The notes beneath the pieces are model-generated. The model was not told the DNA's origin. It was given only the letters and a program-made list of their open reading frames with translations, and did no database searches. The position numbers were made by a program, and so were the translations under genes. A DNA stretch of 64,000 nt from Escherichia coli (GTDB taxonomy: Bacteria; Pseudomonadota; Gammaproteobacteria; Enterobacterales; Enterobacteriaceae): NCBI RefSeq assembly GCF_002854065.1, contig NZ_CP024147.1. One strand, written 5' to 3'. Positions within the stretch are counted from its first letter, which is position 1. Each line of letters begins with the position of its first letter. Positions 1-20,030 of the stretch are shown here, one piece after another.

Positions 1-76
1 GGGCAGGTGAAAGATTGCTCTGGTCACGGCGTAAAAATTCAATGGCCAGCTGGGTGGGATCAAGTTGAGTAGACAT
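1..76 (-). CDS. ydiH: 5' end of a small ORF truncated by the window edge (about 25 codons, MSTQLDPTQLAIEFLRRDQSNLSPA...), position matches ydiH
   Basis: ATG at 74..76 on minus strand preceded by GAGGA Shine-Dalgarno; synteny upstream of menI. Confidence 0.45.
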   Translation of the reverse strand, partial: MSTQLDPTQLAIEFLRRDQSNLSPA

Positions 77-175
77 AGCATCCTCGCTTTTAGACAAGAC
101 CTGCACAGTATACCACCGTTTACTGTGCAGATAATGACCAAAAGCAATATGCGTCACACTTTTCTGGTGACAACG

Positions 176-586
176 TCACAAAATGGCGGTCGTCAATCGT
201 GACGAACAGCACAAACGCCCTTTCTCATCGAAGATTTCAATCTGCCAGACCTGGTGACGCGAACCGAGATGCAACGGTTTGCATACGCCGCGCACCCGCC
301 CTTCTCGTGCCGAGCGGACATGGTTAGCATTGATTTCCAGACCAACCACTTTTTGCTCACCTTCGGTACATAAATAACCGGCAACGGAACCGATACTTTC
401 GGCCAGTACCACGGATGCACCTCCATGTAGCAACCCGAAAAGCTGCTTTGTCCGCGAGTCTACTGGCATTGTCGCTTCAAGGGTGTCATCACCAATATGT
501 TCAAAGCGAATATCCAGTAACCCCACCATGTTTCCTTCACCCATGGCATTCAGTGCTTCCAGGGTGATTTTTCGTTTCCATATCAT
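176..586 (-). CDS. menI: 1,4-dihydroxy-2-naphthoyl-CoA thioesterase (hotdog-fold, PaaI family)
   Basis: 136-aa ORF in track; sequence recognised as YdiI/MenI; synteny. Confidence 0.9.
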   Translation of the reverse strand: MIWKRKITLEALNAMGEGNMVGLLDIRFEHIGDDTLEATMPVDSRTKQLFGLLHGGASVVLAESIGSVAGYLCTEGEQKVVGLEINANHVRSAREGRVRGVCKPLHLGSRHQVWQIEIFDEKGRLCCSSRLTTAIL

Positions 587-3500
587 TTAATAATCTCCAG
601 TAAAGCCTGCACAGGATGGCGTACCCCCGTGCCTTCAACCCGTTTGACCTGACTACGGCAGGAATATCCGGTCGCCAGACAGCGGTTACGCGGCAGTCGC
701 TGCATAGCCTGATGCCAGGATAACTCATAGATCCCGAGCGAATTTTTATGGTTTTTCGCTTCATGTCCGTAAGTCCCTGCCATGCCGCAGCAACCCACGC
801 TGACATTTTCCAGTTTCGCGCCAAAACGGGCAAATATCGCGGCCCATTGTGCTGGCGCACCCGGCAAGGCGGTAACTTCGGTACAGTGACCAAAGAAATA
901 CCATGATTCACCGCTGACTGTAGCCACTGGCTGTGACTCAAGTGCGCTTGCCAGCCATTCATTCGCCAGTAAGACGTTAAACTCGCCACGTTCCTCGCCC
1001 AGTGCCAGTTTATATTCATCGCGATAACAAAGTACCAGCGCCGGATCGACGCCTACCATTGGCATACCCAGCTTCGCCATACGGTTGAGGAAATCCGCCG
1101 TCTTTTTCGCCGTCTTCGCAAAACGATTAAGAAAACCTTTAATATGCTGGGCTTTGCCATTTGGCGAAAATGGCAGTAACACAGGCTGGAAACCTAATTT
1201 TTCGACCAGACGGACAAAATCCGCCACCACTTGCGCATCGTAATAGCTGGTAAAGGGGTCCTGCACCACCAACACCGTGCGCGCTTTCTGCTCTGCATTG
1301 AGAGCTTCAAGCTGTTCCAGCGTCATGTTTGCCGAGCGATGCCCCACCATTTGTTGTTGTAGCGAGGGGACCGACAGCAGCGGCAAATCAACCATGCCGA
1401 TATGTTTTTCCGAGAGTTTGCGCATCAGCGGCTGGTTAATGAAGAAGTTAAAGGTTTTCGGCGCGCGTGCCATCAGCGGTGCGTAGCTCTCGACCGTAGC
1501 GACGAGGTGGTCGCGCAGCGGACGTAAATAACGGGTGTGATAGAGCTGCAGGAAACGAGAGCGAAACTCCGGCACATCAATTTTGATGGGGCACTGGGTC
1601 GAACAAGCTTTACAGGCCAGACAGCCCGACATCGCCTCTTTGACTTCGTGTGAGAAGTCATATTCGCCTTTATTCGCATGCCAGCTATTGCGCGTGCGGG
1701 CAATTAACGTCCGCAAACTGACGCCGGATTCAGGCAGTTCTTGTTCCAGTTTGAGTGGATCAACGCCGCGATCCGCCAACAAACGCAGCCATTCACGCAC
1801 CAGCGTTGCGCGCCCTTTCGGTGAATGAATCCGGTTCTGGGTGATCTTCATCGACGGACACATCGGACTACGGGCATCAAAGTTGAAGCATAAACCGTTG
1901 CCGTTACACTCCATCGCACCGCGCCACTGCTGGCGTACCGCAATGGGGATCTGCCGATCGAATGTACCGCGCTTCACCGCGTCCACTTTCATCATCGGCG
2001 CATCGAGACCTTCTGGCGGGCAAATCTTCCCTGGGTTGAGTCGGTTATGCGGGTCAAATGCCGCTTTCACTTTGCGCAGTTCTGCAAAAAGTTCCTCACC
2101 GAAAAACGCCGGGCTGTATTCAGCGCGAAAACCTTTGCCGTGCTCGCCCCACAACAAACCACCGTATTTCGCAGTCAGCGCCACCACGTCATCAGAAATT
2201 TGCTTCATCAAAATCTCTTGTTGCGGATCGCACATATCCAGTGCCGGACGGACGTGCAACACCCCAGCATCGACATGACCAAACATGCCATAACTTAAGC
2301 CGTGGCTGTCGAGCAGCGCGCGAAATTCAGCAATATAATCGGCCAGATGTTCCGGCGGTACGCAGGTATCCTCAGCAAACGGAATTGGCTTAGCGGCACC
2401 TTTGGCATTGCCAAGCAGACCAACGGCTTTTTTGCGCATTGCATAGATACGTTCAACCCCCGCCAGCTCACGGCACACCTGCCAGCCGATGACACCTGCT
2501 TGATGACTGGCGATCAGCTCATCCAACCGCGCACAGAGTGCATTTACCCGCTCATCAATCAGCGCCTCATCATCACCAGCAAATTCCACAATGTTCAGCC
2601 CGAGCATCTCTTGGTCAGGCACATCGGTAATCAACTCGCTGACGGAATGCCAGACAATATCTTCCCGCGCCAGATTCAGCACTTTTGAGTCCACCGTCTC
2701 TACCGAAAGCGCCCGCGCCTCAACCATAAACGGCGCGTTACGCAGCGCAGAGTCAAAAGAGTCATATTTGACGTTCACCAGACGGCGCACTTTAGGCAAG
2801 CGCGTAATATCCAGCCGCGCTTCGGTAATAAAGGCCAGCGTCCCTTCTGAACCCGTCAGAATGCGCGTCAGGTCGAACTCGGTCATCTCATCGTTAAAGA
2901 CATGACGCAGATCGTAACCGGTAAGAAAGCGGTTAAGTTTGGGGAAGTTGTCGATAATTAACTGGCGTTGCTGACGGCAACGTTGATAAACCGTGTTATA
3001 AATTCGCCCGATTGCGGTATTGGTTTTACCCAGCGTTTCCGCCAGTTCGACGGGTAAAGGTTGCGTATCGAGAATATCGCCCCCCAACAACACCGCGCGT
3101 ACGCCAAGTACGTGATCTGACGTTTTGCCATAGACCAGCGATCCCTGACCGGATGCATCGGTATTGATCATCCCGCCGAGCGTTGCCCGGTTGCTGGTCG
3201 AAAGTTCTGGTGCAAAAAAGTAGCCGAACGGTTTCAGGTACTGATTGAGTTGGTCTTTTATCACCCCGGCCTCAACGCGCACCCAGCCCTCTTCAGGGTT
3301 AATTTCGATGATGCGGTTCATATGGCGGGACATATCAACAATAATCCCCTGGTTGAGCGCCTGACCGTTAGTGCCGGTGCCGCCGCCGCGGGGGGTAAAG
3401 ATCAGCGATGAATAGCGTTCCTGCGCGGCAAGACGGGCGATCAGCGCCACATCTGCGGTTGAACGCGGAAATACCACCGCATCGGGGAGAAGTTGGTAAA

Positions 3501-3639
3501 TACTGTTGTCGGTCGACATTGTCAGACGATCGGCATAACTTGTCGCCGTATCGCCGGTAAAACCTTGTTGCTCCAGCTCTTGCAAAAAATTAAGCACCAG
3601 TTGAACGACTCCGGGTGCCTGGGAAATCTGTGGAATCAT
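583..3639 (-). CDS. ydiJ: large FAD-linked oxidoreductase with C-terminal Cys-rich Fe-S domain, 1018 aa
   Basis: Track ORF 583..3711 trimmed to internal ATG (MIPQISQ...) giving 1018 aa; overlaps menI start by 4 bp. Confidence 0.85.
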   Translation of the reverse strand: MIPQISQAPGVVQLVLNFLQELEQQGFTGDTATSYADRLTMSTDNSIYQLLPDAVVFPRSTADVALIARLAAQERYSSLIFTPRGGGTGTNGQALNQGIIVDMSRHMNRIIEINPEEGWVRVEAGVIKDQLNQYLKPFGYFFAPELSTSNRATLGGMINTDASGQGSLVYGKTSDHVLGVRAVLLGGDILDTQPLPVELAETLGKTNTAIGRIYNTVYQRCRQQRQLIIDNFPKLNRFLTGYDLRHVFNDEMTEFDLTRILTGSEGTLAFITEARLDITRLPKVRRLVNVKYDSFDSALRNAPFMVEARALSVETVDSKVLNLAREDIVWHSVSELITDVPDQEMLGLNIVEFAGDDEALIDERVNALCARLDELIASHQAGVIGWQVCRELAGVERIYAMRKKAVGLLGNAKGAAKPIPFAEDTCVPPEHLADYIAEFRALLDSHGLSYGMFGHVDAGVLHVRPALDMCDPQQEILMKQISDDVVALTAKYGGLLWGEHGKGFRAEYSPAFFGEELFAELRKVKAAFDPHNRLNPGKICPPEGLDAPMMKVDAVKRGTFDRQIPIAVRQQWRGAMECNGNGLCFNFDARSPMCPSMKITQNRIHSPKGRATLVREWLRLLADRGVDPLKLEQELPESGVSLRTLIARTRNSWHANKGEYDFSHEVKEAMSGCLACKACSTQCPIKIDVPEFRSRFLQLYHTRYLRPLRDHLVATVESYAPLMARAPKTFNFFINQPLMRKLSEKHIGMVDLPLLSVPSLQQQMVGHRSANMTLEQLEALNAEQKARTVLVVQDPFTSYYDAQVVADFVRLVEKLGFQPVLLPFSPNGKAQHIKGFLNRFAKTAKKTADFLNRMAKLGMPMVGVDPALVLCYRDEYKLALGEERGEFNVLLANEWLASALESQPVATVSGESWYFFGHCTEVTALPGAPAQWAAIFARFGAKLENVSVGCCGMAGTYGHEAKNHKNSLGIYELSWHQAMQRLPRNRCLATGYSCRSQVKRVEGTGVRHPVQALLEIIK

Positions 3640-4027
3640 TATATTGACCCTTTCCTGCGGTCTGTGATGTAGGTCGATACACTGTTCTTTCAGGCGGCTG
3701 CAATAGCGCACAGAAAGGTGATGTTTATTTACTCTATGGATTTCGAGTTGCAGGAAGGCGGCAAGCGAGTGAACTCCAGGAGCTTACAACAGTAAGTAAC
3801 TGGGGTGAACGAACGTAGCCGCAGCATATGCAACTTGAAATACGACGAGTAAATCGTTTGCGTGTTGCCTGAGTTGTTGTACCACATTTTTTTCTAACAC
3901 GCCCATCAGAATTAAGGGCAGAATCGGCCTGTTAAAAACCGCTGAAATTGCTCATCATTATGCAGGTGAGTTTCGCGTGTTCACGTCGCGTCGACGATTT
4001 GACGCACAAAAAAGGTGAAAAGTAGTT

Positions 4028-5140
4028 ATGGTAAATGTTCGTCAGCCCAGGGATGTCGCACAAATTCTGCTTTCGGTGCTGTTTTTAGCCATCATGATTG
4101 TGGCATGTCTGTGGATTGTTCAACCCTTTATTCTCGGCTTTGCATGGGCCGGTACGGTGGTTATCGCCACCTGGCCGGTATTGTTACGTTTGCAAAAGAT
4201 CATGTTTGGCCGCCGCTCTCTCGCCGTTCTGGTTATGACGCTGTTATTAGTGATGGTGTTTATCATCCCTATTGCTTTGCTGGTTAACAGTATCGTCGAC
4301 GGCAGCGGCCCGCTTATTAAAGCCATTTCCAGCGGTGACATGACGTTACCCGATCTGGCGTGGCTTAATACCATTCCGGTGATTGGCGCGAAGCTGTATG
4401 CAGGCTGGCACAACTTGCTGGATATGGGGGGGACGGCGATCATGGCGAAAGTCCGCCCTTATATTGGTACCACCACCACCTGGTTCGTTGGGCAAGCGGC
4501 GCATATCGGGCGCTTTATGGTGCATTGTGCGCTGATGCTTCTCTTCAGTGCCCTGCTGTACTGGCGCGGTGAACAGGTGGCACAAGGCATTCGCCATTTT
4601 GCAACCCGTCTGGCAGGCGTTCGCGGAGATGCCGCCGTGCTGCTGGCGGCACAGGCTATCCGCGCGGTGGCGCTGGGTGTGGTGGTGACGGCGTTAGTAC
4701 AGGCAGTGCTTGGCGGTATCGGCCTCGCCGTATCCGGCGTACCTTATGCAACGTTGCTAACGGTGTTAATGATCCTCTCCTGCCTTGTCCAGCTTGGCCC
4801 GTTGCCGGTACTGATTCCGGCGATTATCTGGCTCTACTGGACCGGCGATACCACCTGGGGAACGGTATTGTTAGTGTGGAGCGGTGTGGTTGGCACGCTG
4901 GATAACGTCATCCGCCCAATGTTAATTCGCATGGGTGCCGATTTACCGCTGATCCTGATCCTCTCTGGCGTTATTGGTGGTTTGATTGCTTTCGGGATGA
5001 TCGGTCTGTTTATTGGTCCGGTTCTGTTAGCCGTTTCCTGGCGTCTGTTTGCCGCGTGGGTGGAAGAAGTCCCGCCGCCGACGGACCAACCGGAAGAAAT
5101 TCTCGAAGAACTTGGCGAAATCGAGAAACCGAATAAGTAA
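4028..5140 (+). CDS. ydiK: inner-membrane AI-2E/UPF0118 family transporter
   Basis: 370-aa hydrophobic ORF; synteny. Confidence 0.85.
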   Translation: MVNVRQPRDVAQILLSVLFLAIMIVACLWIVQPFILGFAWAGTVVIATWPVLLRLQKIMFGRRSLAVLVMTLLLVMVFIIPIALLVNSIVDGSGPLIKAISSGDMTLPDLAWLNTIPVIGAKLYAGWHNLLDMGGTAIMAKVRPYIGTTTTWFVGQAAHIGRFMVHCALMLLFSALLYWRGEQVAQGIRHFATRLAGVRGDAAVLLAAQAIRAVALGVVVTALVQAVLGGIGLAVSGVPYATLLTVLMILSCLVQLGPLPVLIPAIIWLYWTGDTTWGTVLLVWSGVVGTLDNVIRPMLIRMGADLPLILILSGVIGGLIAFGMIGLFIGPVLLAVSWRLFAAWVEEVPPPTDQPEEILEELGEIEKPNK

Positions 5141-5147
5141 TTTCTCA

Positions 5148-5173
5148 TCAGGCGGCTCTGCCGCCTGATTGTT
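5148..5173 (+). terminator. possible intrinsic terminator after ydiK (GC stem caggcggc/gccgcctg, weak T tract)
   Basis: Inverted repeat read directly 8 bp after ydiK stop. Confidence 0.4.
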
Positions 5174-5325
5174 AACCACCGCTAATTGATATTTGCTTGC
5201 TCTTCCCCATATTTTCCTGCTTACCGCCATTCAGCTGGTAGTACCTGTCGCAAATTCTTTACAGTTTTTAAACTAATGAGACGAATCTGATCGACGCAAA
5301 AAGTCCGTATGCCTACTATTAGCTC

Positions 5326-5430
5326 ACGGTTATAAATCAACATATTGATTTATAAGCATGGAAATCCCCTGAGTGAAACAACGAATTGCTGTGTGTAGTC
5401 TTTGCCCATCTCCCACGATGGGCTTTTTTT
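5326..5430 (+). ncRNA. rprA: RprA small regulatory RNA (Hfq-dependent activator of rpoS translation)
   Basis: Sequence ACGGTTATAAATCAACATATTGATTTATAAGCATGGAAATCCCCTGAGTGAAACAACGAATTGCTGTGTGTAGTCTTTGCCCATCTCCCACGATGGGCTTTTTTT matches RprA as I recall it, ending in hairpin plus T8 terminator. Confidence 0.85.
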
Positions 5431-5568
5431 TAACATTTTTCCGCTTCGCTACCTCGCCCCTCACTCTTTCCAATAATGTTGCACAAGATACTGTGACTCT
5501 CTTCAAGCCGTCAGCAGGCTGATAATGTTATTTATATTTTATTGTTTATTTCATGCAGCCATTACACG

Positions 5569-5925
5569 ATGAACGCTTATGAACTCCAGGCACTCCGCCA
5601 TATTTTTGCCATGACTATTGATGAATGCGCGACCTGGATTGCCCAGACCGGTGACAGTGAAAGCTGGCGTCAGTGGGAAAATGGCAAATGCGCCATTCCT
5701 GATCGTGTAGTCGAGCAACTGTTGGCTATGCGTCAGCAACGAAAAAAACATCTTCATGCCATTATAGAGAAAATAAATAACCGCATCGGCAACAACACCA
5801 TGCGTTTTTTCCCCGACTTAACCGCGTTTCAACGTGTCTACCCGGATGGCAATTTTATTGACTGGAAGATCTATCAATCGGTAGCCGCTGAATTATATGC
5901 ACACGATCTGGAGCGGCTTTGTTAA
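5569..5925 (+). CDS. ydiL: uncharacterised protein YdiL (118 aa)
   Basis: Track ORF 5542..5925 (TTG start) trimmed to ATG at 5569 (MNAYELQ...). Confidence 0.7.
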   Translation: MNAYELQALRHIFAMTIDECATWIAQTGDSESWRQWENGKCAIPDRVVEQLLAMRQQRKKHLHAIIEKINNRIGNNTMRFFPDLTAFQRVYPDGNFIDWKIYQSVAAELYAHDLERLC

Positions 5926-6024
5926 TTTCTCCACAAAAAGGAATTGTCGTTGTTACAACAATAATGAACGGATACTGACACAAAATCGCTACACTTTTTA
6001 AAGCACCTTTGCTAAGTAGAACCT

Positions 6025-10543: not shown

Positions 10544-12139
10544 ATGAAACCTGTAAAACCACCTCGTATTAATGGACGAGTGCCGGTCCTGTCGGCACAG
10601 GAAGCGGTGAATTATATTCCCGACGAAGCAACACTTTGTGTGTTAGGCGCTGGCGGCGGTATTCTGGAAGCCACCACGTTAATTACTGCTCTTGCTGATA
10701 AATATAAACAGACTCAAACGCCACGTAATTTATCGATTATTAGTCCAACAGGGCTTGGCGATCGCGCCGACCGTGGTATTAGTCCGCTGGCGCAAGAAGG
10801 TCTGGTTAAATGGGCATTATGCGGTCACTGGGGACAATCGCCGCGTATTTCTGATCTCGCAGAACAAAATAAAATTATTGCTTATAACTATCCACAAGGT
10901 GTACTTACACAAACCTTACGCGCCGCCGCAGCCCACCAGCCTGGTATTATTAGTGATATTGGCATCGGGACATTTGTCGATCCACGCCAGCAAGGCGGCA
11001 AACTGAATGAAGTCACTAAAGAAGACCTGATTAAACTGGTCGAGTTTGATAACAAAGAATATCTCTATTACAAAGCGATTGCGCCAGATATCGCCTTCAT
11101 TCGCGCTACCACCTGCGACAGCGAAGGCTACGCCACTTTTGAAGATGAGGTGATGTATCTCGACGCATTGGTTATTGCCCAGGCGGTGCACAATAACGGC
11201 GGTATTGTGATGATGCAGGTGCAGAAAATGGTTAAGAAAGCCACGCTGCATCCTAAATCTGTCCGTATTCCGGGTTATCTGGTGGATATTGTGGTGGTCG
11301 ATCCGGATCAAACCCAACTGTATGGCGGTGCACCGGTTAACCGCTTTATTTCTGGTGACTTCACCCTTGATGACAGTACCAAACTTAGCCTGCCCCTAAA
11401 CCAACGTAAATTAGTTGCGCGGCGCGCATTATTCGAAATGCGTAAAGGCGCGGTGGGGAATGTCGGCGTCGGTATTGCTGACGGCATTGGCCTGGTCGCT
11501 CGGGAAGAAGGTTGTGCTGATGACTTTATTCTGACGGTAGAAACAGGTCCGATTGGCGGAATTACTTCACAGGGTATCGCCTTTGGCGCGAACGTGAATA
11601 CCCGCGCCATTCTGGATATGACGTCCCAGTTTGATTTTTATCACGGTGGTGGTCTGGATGTTTGTTATTTGAGTTTTGCTGAAGTCGACCAGCACGGTAA
11701 CGTCGGTGTGCATAAATTCAATGGTAAAATCATGGGCACTGGTGGATTTATTGATATCAGTGCCACTTCGAAGAAAATCGTTTTCTGCGGCACATTAACT
11801 GCGGGCAGTTTAAACACAGAAATTACCGACGGCAAATTAAATATCGTCCAGGAAGGACGGGTGAAGAAATTTATTCGGGAACTACCGGAAATTACTTTCA
11901 GCGGAAAAATCGCTCTCGAGCGAGGGCTGGATGTTCGTTATATCACTGAGCGCGCAGTATTCACGCTGAAAGAAGACGGCCTGCATTTAATCGAAATCGC
12001 CCCTGGCGTCGATTTACAAAAAGATATTCTCGACAAAATGGATTTCACCCCAGTAATTTCGCCAGAACTCAAACTGATGGACGAAAGATTATTTATCGAT
12101 GCGGCGATGGGTTTTGTCCTGCCTGAAGCGGCTCATTAA
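10544..12139 (+). CDS. ydiF: family I CoA-transferase (acetate/short-chain acyl-CoA transferase, fused alpha/beta)
   Basis: 531-aa ORF; synteny. Confidence 0.9.
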   Translation: MKPVKPPRINGRVPVLSAQEAVNYIPDEATLCVLGAGGGILEATTLITALADKYKQTQTPRNLSIISPTGLGDRADRGISPLAQEGLVKWALCGHWGQSPRISDLAEQNKIIAYNYPQGVLTQTLRAAAAHQPGIISDIGIGTFVDPRQQGGKLNEVTKEDLIKLVEFDNKEYLYYKAIAPDIAFIRATTCDSEGYATFEDEVMYLDALVIAQAVHNNGGIVMMQVQKMVKKATLHPKSVRIPGYLVDIVVVDPDQTQLYGGAPVNRFISGDFTLDDSTKLSLPLNQRKLVARRALFEMRKGAVGNVGVGIADGIGLVAREEGCADDFILTVETGPIGGITSQGIAFGANVNTRAILDMTSQFDFYHGGGLDVCYLSFAEVDQHGNVGVHKFNGKIMGTGGFIDISATSKKIVFCGTLTAGSLNTEITDGKLNIVQEGRVKKFIRELPEITFSGKIALERGLDVRYITERAVFTLKEDGLHLIEIAPGVDLQKDILDKMDFTPVISPELKLMDERLFIDAAMGFVLPEAAH

Positions 12140-12152
12140 CAGGAGTATCACG

Positions 12153-13304
12153 ATGGATTTTTCTTTAACTGAAGAACAAGAACTGCTGCTGGCCAGTATT
12201 CGCGAACTGATTACGACTAACTTTCCGGAAGAGTATTTCCGCACCTGCGATCAAAACGGGACATACCCGCGTGAATTTATGCGGGCACTGGCGGATAACG
12301 GTATTTCCATGCTTGGCGTGCCGGAAGAATTTGGTGGTATCCCTGCGGATTACGTCACCCAGATGCTGGCGCTGATGGAAGTGTCAAAATGCGGTGCTCC
12401 GGCATTTTTGATCACCAACGGTCAATGTATTCACAGTATGCGCCGTTTCGGTTCTGCAGAGCAGCTACGTAAAACGGCAGAAAGCACCCTGGAAACCGGC
12501 GACCCCGCCTATGCCCTGGCGTTGACGGAACCAGGTGCTGGCTCAGATAACAACAGCGCCACTACCACTTACACGCGTAAAAACGGCAAGGTTTACATCA
12601 ACGGACAGAAAACTTTTATTACCGGTGCGAAAGAGTACCCGTATATGCTGGTGCTGGCGCGCGATCCTGAACCGAAAGATCCCAAAAAAGCCTTCACCCT
12701 GTGGTGGGTCGACTCCAGTAAGCCCGGCATTAAGATTAACCCGCTGCATAAAATCGGCTGGCATATGCTCAGCACCTGCGAAGTCTATCTCGACAACGTG
12801 GAAGTTGAAGAGAGCGACATGGTGGGCGAAGAAGGAATGGGTTTCCTCAATGTGATGTACAACTTTGAGATGGAGCGCCTGATCAACGCCGCGCGCAGCA
12901 CCGGCTTTGCCGAGTGTGCCTTTGAAGATGCCGCCCGCTATGCCAACCAACGTATCGCTTTTGGTAAACCCATTGGTCATAACCAGATGATCCAGGAAAA
13001 ACTGGCGCTGATGGCGATTAAGATCGACAACATGCGCAACATGGTGCTGAAAGTAGCATGGCAAGCCGATCAGCATCAGTCACTGCGCACCAGCGCGGCG
13101 CTGGCAAAACTGTATTGCGCACGTACCGCAATGGAAGTCATTGATGATGCGATTCAAATCATGGGCGGTCTGGGCTATACCGATGAAGCGCGCGTCTCCC
13201 GCTTCTGGCGTGATGTCCGTTGTGAACGTATTGGCGGCGGTACAGACGAAATTATGATTTACGTAGCAGGTCGGCAAATCCTGAAAGACTATCAGAACAA
13301 ATAA
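12153..13304 (+). CDS. ydiO: acyl-CoA dehydrogenase family protein (383 aa)
   Basis: Track ORF 12099..13304 trimmed to ATG at 12153 (MDFSLTEEQ...) with AGGAG RBS. Confidence 0.9.
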   Translation: MDFSLTEEQELLLASIRELITTNFPEEYFRTCDQNGTYPREFMRALADNGISMLGVPEEFGGIPADYVTQMLALMEVSKCGAPAFLITNGQCIHSMRRFGSAEQLRKTAESTLETGDPAYALALTEPGAGSDNNSATTTYTRKNGKVYINGQKTFITGAKEYPYMLVLARDPEPKDPKKAFTLWWVDSSKPGIKINPLHKIGWHMLSTCEVYLDNVEVEESDMVGEEGMGFLNVMYNFEMERLINAARSTGFAECAFEDAARYANQRIAFGKPIGHNQMIQEKLALMAIKIDNMRNMVLKVAWQADQHQSLRTSAALAKLYCARTAMEVIDDAIQIMGGLGYTDEARVSRFWRDVRCERIGGGTDEIMIYVAGRQILKDYQNK

Positions 13305-13346
13305 TCTGCAGGCGGCGCAGCTTCTTAACAAACTGCGCCGCCAGAT

Positions 13347-14258
13347 TTACCCGGCAAGACTTACCGGTTGAGGAAATTCAGATAAGATTTCTTGTTCCGC
13401 AAAACAGTTTTTAAATTGCCTGCGGTAATCGCTGGGCGAACAACCGACATGGCGCAAAAACAGTTTGGCAAAGTGATCGACATTTTCATAACCCACACGC
13501 CAGGAGATCTCTGCCTGTGATAATTCAGTATTAGTGAGTAACCATTTCGCTTCCGTCATACGCCGTTGAATAACATAGTTAATAGGGGAAATACGATACT
13601 CTTTGGTAAATTCATGGCAAATATAACTGACGCTGGCACGAAATTTTTTCGATAACTGTTCTAAAGTGATTTTTTCGCGATAATTATTATTTAGATAGAA
13701 AAGAATATCTTTTATCAGAACATCTTTTTTAATATACCCCTGCTCCGAACGATAAGCATTTTTAAAGTTTTCGTAGTAAAGAATTGCTAATGTATAGGCA
13801 AATGCATCCCATAACGAAGATGTTTGGCTATTTTTACTTTGCGGCAAAATCACACTTAGCTCATTAAATAAGGTTTTAATGACTTCTTTTCCCTGCCCCG
13901 CGGCAATTACCGGACAAGAATGCGGTTGCAGTAGATGATTTTCCTCAGCCCCCTGAAACTGAAAGCCGTACAGCGCACAGGTACACGTCGTTGCCGGATC
14001 GTTAACGTCAGAGGCCACCGCATGCAGCCTGCCGCGTTCTATCACCACTATATCATCTGCATGCGCGACATATAACGAAGAATCGATGGTAAACCTTGCC
14101 ACCCCTTTCTTGACGTAAATCAGCTCGGTTTCATTGTCATGAACGTGATGTCCAGACTCCCATTTTGGATCATCGCTAAATGCAAAACGTGAAAGCCGTG
14201 GCGTTTTACCAGCGACAAACAGCGTTTCACTGGCATTATCAAAACAGCGTTGATACAT
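13347..14258 (-). CDS. ydiP: AraC/XylS-family transcriptional regulator
   Basis: 303-aa ORF with C-terminal AraC-type HTH; AT-rich. Confidence 0.85.
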   Translation of the reverse strand: MYQRCFDNASETLFVAGKTPRLSRFAFSDDPKWESGHHVHDNETELIYVKKGVARFTIDSSLYVAHADDIVVIERGRLHAVASDVNDPATTCTCALYGFQFQGAEENHLLQPHSCPVIAAGQGKEVIKTLFNELSVILPQSKNSQTSSLWDAFAYTLAILYYENFKNAYRSEQGYIKKDVLIKDILFYLNNNYREKITLEQLSKKFRASVSYICHEFTKEYRISPINYVIQRRMTEAKWLLTNTELSQAEISWRVGYENVDHFAKLFLRHVGCSPSDYRRQFKNCFAEQEILSEFPQPVSLAG

Positions 14259-14573
14259 GACAACCTCCCTATTCCATGAGCAAGCAAAAACAATATATGC
14301 CGGATAAAATACGGCGTGTATTGCGGTTATACAACCGCGTTTAGCGAGAGCTAAACAAGATTATTTACACTGAATGCAAGATTGTACGGTCATGGAATAA
14401 CTATATTGCCGCAAATTGCACTTTTGTTTTAGCGATCGCATTTTTTTTGCAAGATTGTTGGCAAGGAAAACAGCTTGCTCCGTCGAAAACCCCGCACCGC
14501 TATCGCACACTATTTTCAGGCCATTTTTACCTTCCATCGGAGATGGTTCCGTATGCGACTCACAGGAGAAATC

Positions 14574-15338
14574 ATGAAAATAATAACCTGCTTTAAGCTG
14601 GTGCCTGAAGAACAGGACATTGTTGTCACTCCAGAATACACCCTGAATTTCGACAATGCCGACGCCAAAATCAGCCAGTTCGATCTCAATGCCATTGAAG
14701 CTGCAAGCCAGCTTGCAACAGATGACGATGAGATAGCCGCGCTGACCGTTGGCGGCTCATTGTTGCAGAACTCGAAAGTGCGCAAAGACGTGCTATCCCG
14801 CGGGCCGCACAGCCTGTATATGGTGCAGGATGCACAACTTGAGCATGCACTGCCTCTCGATACCGCAAAAGCGCTGGCGGCAGCAGTTGAAAAGATCGGC
14901 TTCGATTTACTGATCTTTGGTGAAGGTTCCGGCGACCTTTATGCCCAGCAGGTTGGCTTGCTGGTCGGAGAAATTCTGCAACTTCCGGTGATTAATGCAG
15001 TGAGTGCTATTCAGCGTCAGGGCAATACACTGGTGATTGAACGCACGCTTGAAGATGACGTTGAAGTTATTGAACTCTCTGTTCCAGCCGTGCTCTGCGT
15101 CACCTCCGATATTAACGTGCCACGCATTCCTTCGATGAAAGCCATTCTCGGCGCGGGTAAAAAACCGGTAAATCAGTGGCAGGCAAGTGATATTGGCTGG
15201 AGCCAGAGCGCACCACTTGCTGAACTGACCGGCATTCGCGTACCGCCGCAAACAGAACGTAAGCACATCATTCTCGATAACGATTCGCCGGAGGCCATTG
15301 CCGAGCTGGCGGAACATCTGAAGAAAGCCCTGAACTGA
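14574..15338 (+). CDS. ydiQ: electron transfer flavoprotein beta subunit (FixA-like)
   Basis: Track ORF 14475..15338 trimmed to ATG 14574 (MKIITCFKLVPE...) with AGGAG RBS; 254 aa. Confidence 0.9.
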   Translation: MKIITCFKLVPEEQDIVVTPEYTLNFDNADAKISQFDLNAIEAASQLATDDDEIAALTVGGSLLQNSKVRKDVLSRGPHSLYMVQDAQLEHALPLDTAKALAAAVEKIGFDLLIFGEGSGDLYAQQVGLLVGEILQLPVINAVSAIQRQGNTLVIERTLEDDVEVIELSVPAVLCVTSDINVPRIPSMKAILGAGKKPVNQWQASDIGWSQSAPLAELTGIRVPPQTERKHIILDNDSPEAIAELAEHLKKALN

Positions 15339-15357
15339 AGCCTACGGAGAAGAAACG

Positions 15358-16296
15358 ATGAGTCAATTAAACAGCGTCTGGGTCTTTAGCGATAATCCTG
15401 AACGTTATGCTGAACTGTTTGGCGGCGCTCAGCAATGGGGCCAACAGGTGTATGCCATTGTACAAAATACCGACCAGGTGCAGACAGTTATGCCTTATGG
15501 TCCAAAATGTATTTATGTTCTTGAGCAAAACGACGCGCTGCAACGCACTGAAAATTACGCCGAAAGCATTGCTGCTCTGCTGAAAGATAAACACCCCGCT
15601 ATGTTGCTACTGGCCGCGACGAAACGTGGTAAAGCTCCGGCAGCACGGTTAAGTGTGCAACTGAATGCGGCGCTGGTGAACGATGCCACGGCGGTGGATA
15701 TTGTCGATGGTCACATTTGCGCCGAACACCGGATGTATGGCGGGTTAGCGTTCGCTCAGGAAAAGATCAACAGCTCGCTAGCGATCATTACCCTTGCACC
15801 CGGTGTTCAGGAACCGTGCACCAGTGATACCTCTCATCAGTGCCCGACAGAAACGGTACCTTATGTTGCTCCGCGTCATGAAATTCTCTGTCGCGAGCGC
15901 CGTGCGAAAGCGGCAAGCAGCGTGGACCTGAGCAAAGCAAAACGTGTGGTTGGCGTCGGTCGTGGTCTGGCAGCGCAGGATGACCTGAAAATGGTCCACG
16001 AACTGGCGGCGGTGCTGAATGCTGAAGTCGGCTGTTCACGTCCAATTGCCGAAGGCGAGAACTGGATGGAGCGTGAACGTTATATCGGTGTCTCCGGCGT
16101 GTTGCTGAAATCCGATCTCTACCTGACGCTGGGGATCTCCGGGCAGATCCAACATATGGTTGGCGGCAACGGCGCAAAAGTGATTGTCGCCATCAATAAA
16201 GATAAAAATGCGCCAATCTTCAACTATGCCGACTACGGTCTGGTGGGCGATATCTACAAAGTCGTCCCTACCCTGATTAGCCAGTTGAGCCGCTAA
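15358..16296 (+). CDS. ydiR: electron transfer flavoprotein alpha subunit (FixB-like)
   Basis: 312-aa ORF. Confidence 0.9.
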   Translation: MSQLNSVWVFSDNPERYAELFGGAQQWGQQVYAIVQNTDQVQTVMPYGPKCIYVLEQNDALQRTENYAESIAALLKDKHPAMLLLAATKRGKAPAARLSVQLNAALVNDATAVDIVDGHICAEHRMYGGLAFAQEKINSSLAIITLAPGVQEPCTSDTSHQCPTETVPYVAPRHEILCRERRAKAASSVDLSKAKRVVGVGRGLAAQDDLKMVHELAAVLNAEVGCSRPIAEGENWMERERYIGVSGVLLKSDLYLTLGISGQIQHMVGGNGAKVIVAINKDKNAPIFNYADYGLVGDIYKVVPTLISQLSR

Positions 16297-16351
16297 TTCC
16301 CCTTTCAACCACATCTCCCGCTGTAAACGCAGCGGGAAGGGAGCATAACGC

Positions 16352-17641
16352 ATGTCGGATGACAAATTTGATGCCATTGTGGTCGGTGCGGGCGTTGCTG
16401 GTAGCGTTGCCGCACTGGTCATGGCACGAGCCGGGCTGGATGTCCTGGTGATAGAACGCGGCGACAGTGCCGGATGTAAAAACATGACCGGCGGGCGTCT
16501 TTATGCCCACACACTTGAAGAGATTATTCCAGGCTTTGCAGCATCAGCGCCGGTAGAACGCAAGGTCACACGCGAGAAAATCTCCTTCTTAACCGAAGAG
16601 AGCGCCGTTACCCTCGATTTTCACCGCGAGCAACCAGATGTTCCGCAACACGCATCTTATACCGTATTGCGTAATCGTCTGGACCCGTGGTTGATGGAAC
16701 ATGCCGAGCAGGCGGGCGCACAGTTTATCCCGGGAGTTCGCGTCGATGCGCTGGTTCGTGAAGGAAACAAGGTCACTGGCGTCCAGGCTGGGGATGATAT
16801 TCTCGAAGCGAATGTGGTGATTCTGGCTGATGGCGTTAACTCGATGCTTGGCCGTTCGCTGGGAATGGTTCCCGCTTCCGATCCGCATCATTACGCTGTT
16901 GGTGTTAAAGAGGTTATTGGCCTCACACCAGAACAGATCAACGATCGCTTTAATATTACGGGCGAGGAAGGTGCCGCCTGGCTGTTTGCCGGTTCCCCTT
17001 CTGACGGCCTGATGGGTGGCGGATTCCTCTATACCAATAAGGATTCCATATCGTTGGGGCTGGTTTGTGGATTGGGTGATATCGCCCATGCGCAAAAAAG
17101 CGTGCCGCAAATGCTGGAAGATTTTAAACAACACCCCGCCATTCGCCCGCTGATTAGCGGCGGCAAGTTGCTTGAATATTCCGCGCATATGGTGCCGGAA
17201 GGCGGTCTGGCAATGGTGCCGCAACTGGTTAACGAGGGCGTGATGATCGTTGGTGACGCCGCAGGCTTCTGCCTGAATTTGGGTTTTACGGTCCGCGGCA
17301 TGGATTTAGCCATTGCATCGGCTCAGGCTGCCGCCACAACGGTGATCGCCGCCAAAGAACGCGCGGATTTCTCCGCCAGCAGTCTTGCGCAATACAAACG
17401 TGAGCTGGAACAAAGTTGTGTTATGCGCGATATGCAGCATTTTCGCAAGATCCCGACGCTGATGGAAAATCCGCGCCTGTTTAGTCAGTATCCGCGCATG
17501 GTCGCCGACATCATGAACGATATGTTCACCATTGACGGCAAACCAAACCAGCCGGTACGCAAAATGATCATGGGACACGCGAAGAAAATTGGGCTGATCA
17601 ACTTGCTGAAAGATGGCATTAAGGGAGCAACCGCGCTATGA
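16352..17641 (+). CDS. ydiS: FAD-dependent oxidoreductase, ETF-quinone oxidoreductase-like (FixC-like)
   Basis: 429-aa ORF with N-terminal GxGxxG dinucleotide motif (VVGAGVAGS). Confidence 0.9.
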   Translation: MSDDKFDAIVVGAGVAGSVAALVMARAGLDVLVIERGDSAGCKNMTGGRLYAHTLEEIIPGFAASAPVERKVTREKISFLTEESAVTLDFHREQPDVPQHASYTVLRNRLDPWLMEHAEQAGAQFIPGVRVDALVREGNKVTGVQAGDDILEANVVILADGVNSMLGRSLGMVPASDPHHYAVGVKEVIGLTPEQINDRFNITGEEGAAWLFAGSPSDGLMGGGFLYTNKDSISLGLVCGLGDIAHAQKSVPQMLEDFKQHPAIRPLISGGKLLEYSAHMVPEGGLAMVPQLVNEGVMIVGDAAGFCLNLGFTVRGMDLAIASAQAAATTVIAAKERADFSASSLAQYKRELEQSCVMRDMQHFRKIPTLMENPRLFSQYPRMVADIMNDMFTIDGKPNQPVRKMIMGHAKKIGLINLLKDGIKGATAL

Positions 17642-17931
17642 GCCAGAACGCTACGGTTAACGTCGACATCAAATTAGGCGTCAATAAATTCCATGTTGAT
17701 GAGGGCCACCCGCATATCATTTTGGCGGCAAATCCCGATATCAATGAATTCCGTAAATTAATGAAAGCCTGCCCTGCCGGACTTTATAAGCAGGATGATG
17801 CCGGCAACATTCATTTTGATTCCGCCGGTTGTCTGGAGTGCGGCACCTGTCGGGTGCTGTGCGGTAACACTATTCTCGAACAGTGGCAATATCCCGCAGG
17901 CACCTTCGGTATTGATTTTCGCTACGGCTAA
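17638..17931 (+). CDS. ydiT: ferredoxin-like protein (FixX-like)
   Basis: 97-aa ORF with Cys-rich C-terminus; 4-bp overlap with ydiS. Confidence 0.85.
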   Translation: MSQNATVNVDIKLGVNKFHVDEGHPHIILAANPDINEFRKLMKACPAGLYKQDDAGNIHFDSAGCLECGTCRVLCGNTILEQWQYPAGTFGIDFRYG

Positions 17932-17933
17932 TC

Positions 17934-19262
17934 ATGCATCCCACAGGCCCGCATCTCGGGCCTGATGTTCTGTTTCGAGAGTCCAAAATGAAAGTGACAT
18001 TAACGTTTAACGAACAACGTCGTGCGGCGTATCGTCAGCAAGGGCTATGGGGCGATGCTTCGCTGGCCGATTACTGGCAGCAGACCGCTCGTGCGATGCC
18101 AGACAAAATTGCCGTGGTCGATAATCATGGAGCATCGTACACCTATAGCGCGCTCGATCACGCCGCGAGCTGTCTGGCAAACTGGATGTTAGCGAAGGGT
18201 ATTGAATCAGGCGATCGCATCGCATTTCAACTGCCAGGCTGGTGTGAATTTACCGTTATCTATCTTGCCTGCCTGAAAATCGGTGCGGTTTCCGTACCGC
18301 TGTTGCCTTCCTGGCGGGAAGCAGAACTGGTATGGGTGCTTAATAAGTGTCAGGCAAAAATGTTCTTTGCACCGACGTTGTTTAAACAAACGCGTCCGGT
18401 AGATTTAATCCTGCCGCTGCAAAATCAGCTTCCACAACTACAACAAATTGTCGGCGTGGACAAACTGGCTCCCGCCACCTCTTCCCTCTCATTAAGTCAG
18501 ATTATCGCCGACAATACCCCACTGACCACGGCGATAACGACCCACGGCGATGAATTAGCCGCGGTGCTGTTTACCTCCGGAACCGAGGGCCTGCCAAAGG
18601 GCGTGATGCTTACGCATAACAATATTCTCGCCAGTGAGCGGGCTTATTGCGCGCGGCTGAATCTGACCTGGCAGGATGTCTTTATGATGCCTGCGCCACT
18701 CGGCCACGCAACGGGCTTTCTGCATGGCGTAACAGCACCATTTTTGATTGGTGCTCGCAGCGTGTTGTTAGATATTTTCACTCCTGATGCGTGTCTCGCG
18801 CTGCTTGAGCAGCAGCGTTGCACCTGTATGCTCGGCGCAACGCCGTTTGTCTATGATCTTTTGAATTTACTAGAGAAACAACCCGCAGACCTTTCAGCGC
18901 TGCGCTTCTTTCTTTGCGGCGGTACCACAATCCCCAAAAAAGTGGCGCGTGAATGCCAGCAGCGCGGCATTAAATTATTAAGTGTTTATGGTTCCACAGA
19001 AAGTTCGCCGCATGCGGTGGTGAATCTCGATGATCCTTTGTCGCGCTTTATGCACACCGATGGTTACGCTGCCGCAGGTGTAGAGATTAAAGTGGTCGAT
19101 GACGCACGCAAGACCTTACCGCCAGGTTGCGAAGGTGAAGAAGCCTCGCGTGGCCCCAATGTGTTTATGGGGTATTTTGATGAACCTGAATTAACCGCCC
19201 GAGCCCTGGATGAAGAAGGCTGGTATTACAGCGGCGATCTCTGCCGTATGGATGAAGCTGGC
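17934..19262 (+). pseudogene. fadK: 5' fragment of short-chain acyl-CoA synthetase fadK/ydiD, truncated by IS1 insertion (reading frame runs into IS1 and stops at 19287..19289)
   Basis: Track ORF 17934..19289; AMP-binding motif TSGTEGLPKG present; alternative start at 17988 (MKVTLTF). Confidence 0.85.
19254..19262. repeat. 9-bp target-site duplication (gaagctggc), left copy
   Basis: Identical 9-mer immediately flanks both IS1 ends. Confidence 0.85.
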
Positions 19263-19317
19263 GGTGATGCTGCCAACTTACTGATTTAGTGTATGATGGT
19301 GTTTTTGAGGTGCTCCA

Positions 19318-19593
19318 GTGGCTTCTGTTTCTATCAGCTGTCCCTCCTGTTCAGCTACTGACGGGGTGGTGCGTAACGGCAAAAGCACTGCCGGACATCA
19401 GCGCTATCTCTGCTCTCACTGCCGTAAAACATGGCAACTGCAGTTCACTTACACCGCTTCTCAACCCGGTACGCACCAGAAAATCATTGATATGGCCATG
19501 AATGGCGTTGGATGCCGGGCAACCGCCCGCATTATGGGCGTTGGCCTCAACACGATTTTCCGCCATTTAAAAAACTCAGGCCGCAGTCGGTAA
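19318..19593 (+). CDS. insA: IS1 InsA (transposition inhibitor / DNA-binding N-terminal part of transposase)
   Basis: 91-aa [40 protein letters not shown]...; GTG start. Confidence 0.9.
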
Positions 19594-20015: not shown

Positions 20016-20030
20016 GTTGGAGTCATTACC

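What the first reader, a model, noticed from the sequence alone, without database searches (positions are those of the whole stretch)
176..3639. Large multidomain flavoprotein ydiJ overlaps menI by 4 bp
The menI start (ATG) overlaps the ydiJ stop in an ATGA-type junction at 583..586, implying co-transcription and translational coupling of a menaquinone-pathway thioesterase with a 1018-aa FAD/Fe-S oxidoreductase whose substrate is not firmly assigned in my memory. The pairing hints at a functional link (quinone or 2-hydroxyacid metabolism).
Basis: partly seen in the sequence, partly recalled or inferred. Interest (0 to 1): 0.35.

Follow-up and report, generated by a model that had tools for sequence, protein, structure and literature searches.

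The report
Known E. coli ydiJ-menI overlapping operon
This is the already annotated E. coli ydiJ-menI gene pair, a D-2-hydroxyglutarate dehydrogenase followed by a vitamin-K2 pathway thioesterase; the two genes share four bases, an arrangement that is real and conserved but ordinary in bacteria.

Summary
On the minus strand, ydiJ (583..3639, 1018 aa) ends in a TGA that overlaps the menI ATG (menI 176..586), giving ATGA at 583..586. A GGAG Shine-Dalgarno lies 8 nt upstream, inside the last ydiJ codons.

The locus is the E. coli chromosome. RefSeq annotates both genes with the same 4-nt overlap, and the literature lists the pair as operon 'ydiJI'.

YdiJ was shown in 2022 to be a strictly specific D-2-hydroxyglutarate dehydrogenase. 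It is a fusion of a GlcD-like FAD domain, a [4Fe-4S] motif and a GlpC/HdrB-like CCG half.

Across 79 species with ydiJ, menI follows it in 19:
- 14 of 15 Enterobacterales
- 3 of 4 Pasteurellaceae
- Aeromonas and Psychromonas

It never follows ydiJ in Vibrio, Shewanella, Pseudomonas, Halomonas or more distant taxa. Where the genes overlap, the internal GGAG is kept at a synonymous site (13/14 GAG). Where a spacer supplies its own Shine-Dalgarno, that codon is GAA (5/5).

Co-transcription and coupling are therefore well supported by sequence but not shown directly. A Dickeya transcript map reports a weak start site inside ydiJ. A quinone link is plausible but untested. Verdict: already known, low interest.

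The parts
583..3639 (-). ydiJ coding sequence, 1018 aa: D-2-hydroxyglutarate dehydrogenase
   Evidence: ORF. RefSeq annotation in the near-identical genome. NCBIfam equivalog NF049975 scores 1727 bits against a cut-off of 1350. Enzymology of the K-12 protein is in PMC9504171.
176..586 (-). [quoted passage not shown]
   Evidence: ORF. Pfam 4HBT. NCBIfam NF007631 scores 307.8 bits against a cut-off of 226. PDB YdiI chains 4k49 and 1sbk align over residues 1-136.
583..586 (-). ATGA junction: ydiJ stop TGA (585..583) overlapping the menI start ATG (586..584)
   Evidence: Read directly from the sequence. The same geometry occurs in 11 other species and is invariant in three aligned E. coli strains.
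595..598 (-). GGAG Shine-Dalgarno for menI, 8 nt before the ATG, formed by the Leu-Glu codons (CTG GAG) of the ydiJ tail
   Evidence: Sequence. The Glu codon is GAG in 13/14 overlapping cases, against a 42% GAG background in the same genes, and GAA in 5/5 species whose spacer carries its own Shine-Dalgarno. The motif is also visible in alignment A2.
3064..3486 (-). YdiJ residues 52-192: FAD-binding (PCMH-type) domain
   Evidence: Pfam PF01565, E 2.5e-38.
2023..2799 (-). YdiJ residues 281-539: FAD-linked oxidase C-terminal (substrate) domain
   Evidence: Pfam PF02913, E 2.2e-68.
1588..1623 (-). YdiJ residues 673-684: CxxCxxCxxxCP [4Fe-4S] ferredoxin motif
   Evidence: C673, C676, C679, C683 and P684 are invariant in 19 homologues. 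Pfam Fer4_8 matches. Chemoproteomics points to C673 and C683 as cluster ligands (bioRxiv 10.1101/2021.04.01.438105).
592..1650 (-). YdiJ residues 664-1016: GlpC-like half with HdrB/LutA-type CCG domains. The invariant GCCGM motif (residues 949-953) lies at 781..795.
   Evidence: NCBIfam GlpC model PRK11168, E 2.9e-31. The Pfam CCG model is silent. C919, C950, C951 and C994 are invariant. The AlphaFold model has pLDDT 90.6. Its best fold matches are EtfD 9ojn, HdrB 5odc_B and LutA 9a6l_A.
440..442 (-). menI codon 49, CTT (Leu) here; Pro in the closest genome (CCT) and in every orthologue aligned. A rare allele next to the active-site Gln48.
   Evidence: Single-base difference at 441 from the closest genome. 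No complete E. coli genome matched at 99% or more (best 98.4%, one mismatch) among the 4865 of 5426 that gave a match; 561 gave none. Pro49 is invariant in 19 orthologues. The exact protein is on only 2 public contigs.
78..175 (-). menI-ydiH spacer marking the 3' end of the pair. It holds the promoter-like site TTGTCA-16-CATATT (173..146) and a long stable hairpin.
   Evidence: Promoter scan. The same hexamers are reported as an RpoD SELEX promoter for ydiH (PMC3946193). RNA fold is -48.3 kcal/mol, z -5.8. In relatives without ydiH, canonical terminators follow menI.
3640..4027 (.). Divergent ydiK-ydiJ intergenic region, presumed to hold the ydiJ promoter (not mapped here)
   Evidence: Gene map. 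The consensus scan found no sigma-70 match on the minus strand and there is no FNR-like box. In Dickeya the ydiJ unit has a strong start site 94 nt upstream of its start codon.

Best explanation
This is the ordinary, already annotated bicistronic ydiJ-menI (ydiJI) operon of E. coli. One mRNA, started in the ydiK-ydiJ spacer, encodes two enzymes. The first is YdiJ, a 1018-aa D-2-hydroxyglutarate dehydrogenase. In YdiJ a GlcD-like FAD domain oxidises D-2-hydroxyglutarate to 2-oxoglutarate and passes the electrons through a [4Fe-4S] motif to a GlpC/HdrB-like CCG half, and probably on to the quinone pool. The second is MenI, the hotdog-fold thioesterase that frees 1,4-dihydroxy-2-naphthoate from its CoA ester in menaquinone synthesis. 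The menI ribosome-binding site (GGAG, 8 nt, ATG) lies inside the last 16 nt of ydiJ. A ribosome finishing ydiJ at TGA therefore sits on the menI ATG and can reinitiate, and free 30S subunits can probably also bind because the site is unstructured. Shown here: the anatomy, the identity of both proteins, the conservation of the overlap and of the internal Shine-Dalgarno, and the taxonomic limits of the linkage. Taken from the literature: both enzyme activities and the operon listing. Inferred: co-transcription in this strain, reinitiation as the coupling mechanism, and quinone as the electron acceptor.
For: The sequence and ORFs show the ATGA overlap and the GGAG. RefSeq annotates the same overlap. 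Both proteins score above the curated cut-offs of their equivalog models and carry the expected Pfam domains. No promoter-like or terminator-like site lies at the junction. The operon is listed as 'ydiJI', with a separate promoter for ydiH downstream (PMC3946193). Salmonella SL1344 TU_146 joins the two genes. In 79 species with ydiJ, menI follows it directly in 19. Of those 19, 11 have ATGA and 2 have a 1-nt overlap. Canonical terminators follow menI in Enterobacter, Pectobacterium, Photorhabdus and Providencia. The Shine-Dalgarno codon is GAG in 13/14 overlapping cases against a 42% background (binomial about 1e-4), and GAA in 5/5 cases with a spacer (Fisher 5e-4). Four of five native E. coli 4-nt-overlap pairs tested, including menD-menH, are coupled by termination-reinitiation (PMC6728339). 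D-2-hydroxyglutarate activity, strict specificity and knockout accumulation are published. The fold of the C-terminal half matches EtfD, HdrB and LutA.
Against: I could retrieve no direct transcript or coupling measurement for E. coli. The Dickeya dadantii map lists ydiJ and menI as separate units, with an RNA-seq-only ('medium') start site 42 nt upstream of menI, though with no terminator after ydiJ. That map also splits well-known operons such as rbs and ugp. The junction RNA is less structured than shuffled controls (z +1.3), so menI translation need not depend on ydiJ translation. The codon statistics ignore the relatedness of the species. The physiological electron acceptor is unknown, because only PES/DCIP dyes were used in the assay.
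Confidence: 0.8

Rival explanations
1. The pairing is a functional module. YdiJ delivers electrons from D-2-hydroxyglutarate specifically to (demethyl)menaquinone through its GlpC/EtfD-like half, and selection keeps the dehydrogenase co-expressed with a menaquinone-synthesis step.
For: The C-terminal half matches GlpC, the subunit of the anaerobic glycerol-3-phosphate dehydrogenase. Its fold best matches mycobacterial EtfD, then HdrB and LutA. From my own knowledge, EtfD is thought to feed the menaquinone pool. PMC12297413 proposes direct quinone use by the GlpC domain. To my knowledge, all lineages with the linkage (Enterobacterales, Pasteurellaceae, Aeromonas) are facultative anaerobes that make menaquinone or demethylmenaquinone, while the ubiquinone-only Pseudomonas and Halomonas have ydiJ without menI. 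The overlap has been kept across Enterobacterales.
Against: Vibrio (0 of 7, including Salinivibrio) and Shewanella also make menaquinone, to my knowledge, yet lack the linkage. Three distant homologues have no thioesterase neighbour, so there is no sign of independent re-invention. In Haemophilus sputorum, Aeromonas and Rodentibacter the two genes are separated by a terminator-like hairpin, an extra ORF or an 834-nt insert, so co-expression is dispensable. Pseudomonas orthologues work in a ubiquinone-only background. There is no FNR-like box upstream of ydiJ. No assay with any quinone has been reported.
Confidence: 0.2
2. menI is expressed mainly from its own promoter inside the 3' end of ydiJ, and the overlap is only compact packing without real coupling.
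For: The Dickeya map gives menI its own start site 42 nt upstream of its start codon and lists it as a separate unit. The menI initiation region is open and has its own Shine-Dalgarno. One of the five E. coli overlap pairs tested (bioBF) initiates de novo.
Against: That start site is RNA-seq-only, and no terminator was found after ydiJ. No sigma-70-like site was found in the ydiJ 3' end of E. coli or Pectobacterium. There is no stretch of unusual synonymous conservation near the 3' end of ydiJ (the last windows score 0.46-0.50 against a mean of 0.45 and sd of 0.045). The Salmonella and E. coli listings join the two genes.
Confidence: 0.15
3. YdiJ and MenI form a physical complex, and the overlap serves stoichiometric co-translational assembly.
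For: Short overlaps are enriched 4.5-fold for subunits of heteromeric complexes in E. coli (30.4% against 6.8%; PMC10666635).
Against: About 70% of such pairs are not complexes. Purified YdiJ is active alone as a homotetramer. To my knowledge the YdiI crystal structures are homo-oligomers; the chains are listed. The linkage is lost or interrupted in many lineages.
Confidence: 0.05
4. The overlap is an artefact of a wrongly annotated menI start; the true start would be Met15 or Met20.
For: In-frame ATG codons exist at residues 15 and 20.
Against: Residues 1-14 (MIWKR...) are conserved in 19 orthologues and in the paralogue EntH. The crystallised proteins begin at residue 1. A conserved GGAG lies 8 nt upstream of the annotated ATG.
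Confidence: 0.02

Closest known systems
E. coli K-12 ydiJ-menI (ydiJI) operon, b1687-b1686
   Same: Same genes, order, strand relation and 4-nt overlap. The locus is about 95-100% identical in 5420 complete E. coli genomes. It is listed as operon ydiJI.
   Different: This copy carries the rare MenI P49L change and the lineage-typical F23L. Otherwise nothing differs.
menD-menH and other native E. coli gene pairs with a 4-nt ATGA overlap, coupled by termination-reinitiation (Huber et al. 2019 and 2023)
   Same: Unidirectional pair, -4 overlap, and a Shine-Dalgarno inside the upstream gene.
   Different: Coupling has not been measured for ydiJ-menI. The two products are not known to act in one pathway or complex, and the junction shows no masking RNA structure.
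Multidomain Fe-S 2-hydroxyacid dehydrogenases: P. putida PP4493 (D-2-hydroxyglutarate) and the Fe-S D-lactate dehydrogenase PP4737; split counterparts GlcDEF and GlpABC (GlpC)
   Same: The same GlcD-like FAD half fused to a GlpC-like Fe-S half. PP4493 is 51% identical to YdiJ and has the same substrate. Quinone is the proposed acceptor.
   Different: The Pseudomonas-type genes have a divergent LysR-type regulator and no menI. The acceptor of YdiJ itself has not been tested.
CCG-domain redox proteins: M. smegmatis EtfD (9ojn), HdrB (5odc_B), LutA (9a6l_A)
   Same: The fold of YdiJ residues 561-1018 matches these (Foldseek probability 1.00, E 2e-5 to 1e-3; TM 0.55 normalised to the query for EtfD and 0.56-0.68 normalised to the target for HdrB and LutA). 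An invariant GCCGM motif is present.
   Different: Sequence identity is only 12-16% and the Pfam CCG model does not fire. Only one CCG-type cysteine set is invariant (C919, C950, C951, C994). The isolated protein was reported to hold a single [4Fe-4S] cluster.
EntH (YbdB), the enterobactin proofreading thioesterase and paralogue of MenI
   Same: Same hotdog fold, same length and same MIWKR N-terminus (EntH model at 191 bits).
   Different: The window protein scores above the cut-off only for the MenI model (307.8 against 226) and below it for EntH (191.4 against 237). Its genomic context is ydiJ, not the ent cluster.

Membership tests
YdiJ-type D-2-hydroxyglutarate dehydrogenase (NCBIfam NF049975) | Full-length match to the equivalog model above its curated cut-off | tested here: met
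   1727 bits against a cut-off of 1350, residues 1-1016 against profile 1-1017 of 1018
YdiJ-type D-2-hydroxyglutarate dehydrogenase (NCBIfam NF049975) | GlcD-like FAD-binding domain plus FAD-oxidase C-terminal domain | tested here: met
   PF01565 at E 2.5e-38 and PF02913 at E 2.2e-68
YdiJ-type D-2-hydroxyglutarate dehydrogenase (NCBIfam NF049975) | [4Fe-4S] ferredoxin-type cysteine motif | tested here: met
   C673-x2-C676-x2-C679-x3-C683-P684 is invariant in homologues. Fer4_8 matches.
YdiJ-type D-2-hydroxyglutarate dehydrogenase (NCBIfam NF049975) | GlpC-like C-terminal half with CCG domains | tested here: met
   GlpC model at E 2.9e-31. Fold matches to HdrB, LutA and EtfD. The GCCGM motif is invariant. 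The Pfam CCG model itself gives no match.
YdiJ-type D-2-hydroxyglutarate dehydrogenase (NCBIfam NF049975) | Specific oxidation of D-2-hydroxyglutarate to 2-oxoglutarate | not testable with these tools
   Shown for the K-12 enzyme (Km 83 uM, strict specificity; knockouts accumulate D-2-hydroxyglutarate) in PMC9504171 and PMC12297413. The window protein is about 99% identical to public E. coli YdiJ.
[quoted passage not shown] | Equivalog model above its cut-off, and above the paralogue EntH model | tested here: met
   307.8 bits against a cut-off of 226. The EntH model gives 191.4, below its cut-off of 237.
[quoted passage not shown] | Hotdog (4HBT) fold with the active-site residues Gln48, His54 and Glu63 (roles recalled from the YdiI structural literature) | tested here: met
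   PF03061 matches. Q48, H54 and E63 are present and invariant in 20 sequences. The neighbouring invariant Pro49 is Leu in this window.
[quoted passage not shown] | Thioesterase activity on DHNA-CoA and a contribution to menaquinone levels | not testable with these tools
   Literature on K-12 YdiI (Chen 2013 and Latham 2014, cited in PMC12652820; the papers themselves are not held). The effect of P49L is unknown.
Translationally coupled overlapping gene pair (termination-reinitiation) | Same-strand genes with a -4 or -1 overlap | tested here: met
   ATGA at 583..586
Translationally coupled overlapping gene pair (termination-reinitiation) | Shine-Dalgarno for the downstream gene inside the upstream coding sequence | tested here: met
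   GGAG at 595..598, 8 nt from the ATG, kept at a synonymous site
Translationally coupled overlapping gene pair (termination-reinitiation) | Both genes on one transcript | tested here: inconclusive
   No promoter or terminator motif between them, and operon listings in E. coli and Salmonella. However, the Dickeya map lists separate units with an internal RNA-seq-only start site. No E. coli transcript data could be retrieved.
Translationally coupled overlapping gene pair (termination-reinitiation) | Downstream translation depends on translation of the upstream gene | not testable with these tools
   This needs a stop-codon and reporter experiment. The unstructured junction (z +1.3) gives no sign of masking.

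The most novel reading that the evidence does not exclude
YdiJ is a D-2-hydroxyglutarate:(demethyl)menaquinone oxidoreductase. Its EtfD/GlpC-like half would reduce naphthoquinones directly. The conserved translational coupling to MenI in Enterobacterales, Pasteurellaceae and Aeromonas would then tie removal of the SerA by-product D-2-hydroxyglutarate to the supply of its own electron acceptor. YdiJ's product, 2-oxoglutarate, is also the MenD substrate.
Probability: 0.15. Interest if true: 0.45.

Novelty: already known. Interest (0 to 1): 0.17.

Why it matters
There is little conceptual weight here. Both enzymes are characterised, and the overlap is of the commonest kind.

Two practical points follow.

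First, the menI ribosome-binding site and start codon lie inside the last 16 nt of ydiJ. Deleting or replacing ydiJ or its GlpC half, as is done in D-2-hydroxyglutarate biosensor and production strains, can therefore silently change MenI and menaquinone levels. Phenotypes assigned to ydiJ may be partly polar effects.

Second, the physiological electron acceptor of YdiJ is still unknown. The GlpC/EtfD-like fold and the lineage-restricted link to menI give a cheap, testable hypothesis: naphthoquinone versus ubiquinone.

Tried and rejected
- **Pfam CCG domain.** There is no match even at E up to 10 on the C-terminal 371 residues. The question was settled instead by the GlpC model and by the fold.
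- **Internal promoter for menI.** The consensus scan found none in E. coli or Pectobacterium. Synonymous-site conservation along ydiJ in 15 Enterobacterales shows no peak at the 3' end; the highest values are 0.57 at residues 663-686 and 777-819, against a mean of 0.45 and sd of 0.045. The power of this test is low.
- **Masking RNA structure at the junction.** None was found: -25.6 kcal/mol, z +1.3.
- **FNR-type box upstream of ydiJ.** None with up to 2 mismatches lies in 3640..4027, and the window total is near chance.
- **Rfam scan of 1..6000.** Only RprA at 5326..5433 was found.
- **Independent thioesterase linkage in distant YdiJ homologues.** None was found in three look-ups.
- **E. coli transcript, ribosome or proteome tables.** The supplements are not held or do not contain the genes. 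The primary YdiI papers are not held. The cap on papers was then reached.
- **First homologue search.** It returned mostly close relatives (88-99% identical), so diversity came from the representative search and the genome scan.
- **SNP at 3678 upstream of ydiJ.** It is a common polymorphism, with 551 genomes carrying the identical 61-mer.

Full report
**What is there.** The window is E. coli chromosome. Bases 1-5200 match 5420 of 5426 complete genomes over at least 80% of their length. They differ from the closest genome (strain 100416) at only two positions. RefSeq annotates, all on the minus strand of the window, ydiH (cut by the window edge), menI at 176..586 and ydiJ at 583..3639. The divergent ydiK lies at 4028..5140 and RprA at 5326..5433.

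The minus strand reads ...CTG GAG ATT ATT AAA TGA in the ydiJ frame and ATG ATA TGG AAA in the menI frame. The ydiJ stop is therefore 585..583, the menI start is 586..584, and the shared bases are ATGA at 583..586, exactly as reported. A GGAG at 595..598 lies 8 nt before the ATG.

Both start sites are sound. YdiJ aligns end to end with its NCBIfam equivalog. MenI aligns from residue 1 with crystallised YdiI, shares MIWKR with the paralogue EntH, and matches 19 orthologues.

**What the genes are.** YdiJ scores 1727 bits against NF049975, 'D-2-hydroxyglutarate dehydrogenase YdiJ' (cut-off 1350). It carries FAD_binding_4, FAD-oxidase_C and Fer4_8. Residues 664-1016 match GlpC at E 2.9e-31, although the Pfam CCG model is silent.

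A 40-sequence alignment gave a confident AlphaFold model of residues 561-1018 (pLDDT 90.6, pTM 0.90). Its best solved relatives are M. smegmatis EtfD, HdrB and LutA. The invariant cysteines are C673, C676, C679 and C683 (the ferredoxin motif) and C919, C950, C951 and C994 (around GCCGM). No close solved structure of YdiJ exists by sequence; the best matches are distant FAD-domain relatives and none covers the C-terminal half.

The literature settles the substrate:
- ydiJ knockouts in E. coli and Pantoea accumulate D-2-hydroxyglutarate.
- The purified homotetramer has a Km of 83 uM and strict specificity (PMC9504171).
- Both halves of the protein are needed in vivo (PMC12297413).
- The Pseudomonas orthologue PP4493 does the same job.
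- The isolated protein holds FAD and one [4Fe-4S] cluster.

Only artificial dyes were used as acceptor. Quinone is proposed but untested.

MenI scores 307.8 bits against the DHNA-CoA hydrolase equivalog (cut-off 226) and falls below the cut-off for EntH.

**Is it an operon, and is translation coupled?** There is no intergenic DNA, and no promoter-like or terminator-like motif at the junction. Shimada et al. list the unit as 'ydiJI'. They place an RpoD SELEX promoter, TTGTCA-16-CATATT, in front of ydiH, and these are the same hexamers my scan found at 173..146. A Salmonella co-expression study joins the two genes as one operon.

Against this, the Dickeya dadantii map lists them separately. There ydiJ has a strong start site and no terminator, and menI has an RNA-seq-only start site 42 nt upstream of its ATG. 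That map also splits classic operons such as rbs and ugp. I found no matching promoter motif in E. coli or Pectobacterium, and no synonymous-site conservation peak in the ydiJ 3' end.

**Comparative evidence.** This is the strongest new result. A scan of one genome per species returned 79 loci with YdiJ orthologues at 47-96% identity. A menI orthologue follows on the same strand in 19 of them:
- 14 of 15 Enterobacterales (all except Rosenbergiella)
- 3 of 4 Pasteurellaceae
- Aeromonas
- a Psychromonas MAG

It never follows ydiJ in Vibrio/Salinivibrio (0 of 7), Shewanella, Pseudoalteromonas, Colwellia, Idiomarina, Pseudomonas, Halomonas, Marinobacterium, or alpha- and betaproteobacteria.

The junctions differ as follows:
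- Eleven loci from Escherichia to Photorhabdus and Providencia have the same ATGA junction.
- Acerihabitans and Pectobacterium have TAATG or TGATG.
- Rahnella, Haemophilus and Psychromonas have 11-63 nt spacers with their own Shine-Dalgarno.
- H. sputorum has a terminator-like hairpin between the genes.
- Aeromonas has an extra ORF plus a terminator.
- Rodentibacter has an 834-nt insert.

The Glu codon of the conserved ...LLEI tail is GAG, which makes the GGAG, in 13 of 14 overlapping cases. The GAG background in the same genes is 42%. The codon is GAA in all 5 cases with a spacer (binomial about 1e-4, Fisher 5e-4, both ignoring phylogeny). This shows the internal Shine-Dalgarno is under selection as the menI ribosome-binding site. 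Canonical terminators follow menI in relatives without ydiH, so the unit is bicistronic.

The junction RNA is not structured (z +1.3). Reinitiation is likely, since 4 of 5 native E. coli 4-nt pairs tested behave that way, including menD-menH. De novo initiation is not excluded.

**How unusual is it?** It is not unusual. Overlaps of -4 and -1 nt are the commonest same-strand distances. E. coli has 820 pairs at -8..+10 nt, and about 70% of them are not complex subunits. The pair is annotated, and both functions are published.

**Functional link.** The quinone idea remains a hypothesis. In its favour are the GlpC/EtfD-like fold and the restriction of the linkage to lineages that, to my knowledge, use naphthoquinones. 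Against it: the linkage is absent from Vibrio and Shewanella, it is interrupted in several lineages, three distant homologues show no independent recurrence, no FNR-like site lies upstream, and no quinone assay exists. The conserved synteny ppsR-ppsA-(ydiK)-ydiJ-menI-(ydiH)-suf fits simple inheritance from a common ancestor of Enterobacterales, Pasteurellales and Aeromonadales.

**Verdict.** The feature is already known and ordinary. Two things are useful: a warning about polar effects of ydiJ deletions on menI, and a testable hypothesis about the electron acceptor.

Noticed in passing
window 440..442 (menI codon 49; SNP at 441): MenI here has Leu49 (CTT) where the closest genome has CCT and all 19 orthologues aligned have Pro. 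The change lies in the invariant RT.QP.G.LHGG motif next to Gln48. No complete E. coli genome matched the surrounding 61-mer at 99% or more (best 98.4%, one mismatch) among the 4865 of 5426 that gave a match; 561 gave none. The exact protein (WP_101969420.1) is on only 2 public contigs. It could be a real rare allele that weakens the thioesterase, or a sequencing error.
   Followed up: yes
window 78..175 (menI-ydiH spacer): The spacer folds into a very stable extended hairpin (-48.3 kcal/mol, z -5.8) that pairs the ydiH Shine-Dalgarno region. It contains the palindrome CTGCACAGT-N12-ACTGTGCAG around a TGnTATACT extended -10-like motif, which is conserved in E. albertii and Citrobacter. It also contains the SELEX-mapped TTGTCA-16-CATATT site. 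It could be an operator, an RNA stabiliser or a weak terminator for ydiJ-menI.
   Followed up: partly
window 5569..5925 (ydiL; SNP at 5636): ydiL is intact here (Trp23), whereas the closest genome has a stop at that codon and is annotated as a pseudogene.
   Followed up: yes
window 19262..20030, 12126..19262 and 53075..56783: An IS1 copy sits at about 19262..20030. The window keeps about 7.1 kb (the ydiO-fadK region) and about 3.7 kb (chb genes) that strain 100416 has lost next to IS1 copies. The IS explains the many extra matches, including on plasmids.
   Followed up: partly
L044 9073..9906 (Rodentibacter rarus): An 834-nt insert between ydiJ and menI carries three copies of a repeat of roughly 70 nt (...ttaaccttgccttcccctgcttgcgggggaaggt.cccgaagggcggaaggggg...), flanking a stretch that was not examined for genes. 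It looks like a small mobile or repetitive element.
   Followed up: no
L069 9097..9159 and L047 9058..9689: In Haemophilus sputorum a terminator-like hairpin (ccccgcaatcttgcgggg followed by cgtttt) separates ydiJ from menI. In Aeromonas caviae an extra ORF and a T-rich hairpin do the same. This shows that co-transcription of the pair is dispensable in some lineages.
   Followed up: partly
Loci L040, L043, L046, L049-L056, L058, L061, L063 (Pseudomonas, Marinobacterium, Amphritea): In ubiquinone-type gammaproteobacteria, ydiJ has a divergent LysR-family regulator about 1 kb upstream in place of ydiK. In Vibrio a 153-aa membrane protein follows ydiJ directly. In Alteromonadales and Shewanella, ppsR-ppsA lie upstream.
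   Followed up: partly
window about 38800..40700: By transfer from the annotation of matching genomes, a type III secretion effector gene (espL1) lies between yniD and thrS in this window. It was not examined.
   Followed up: no
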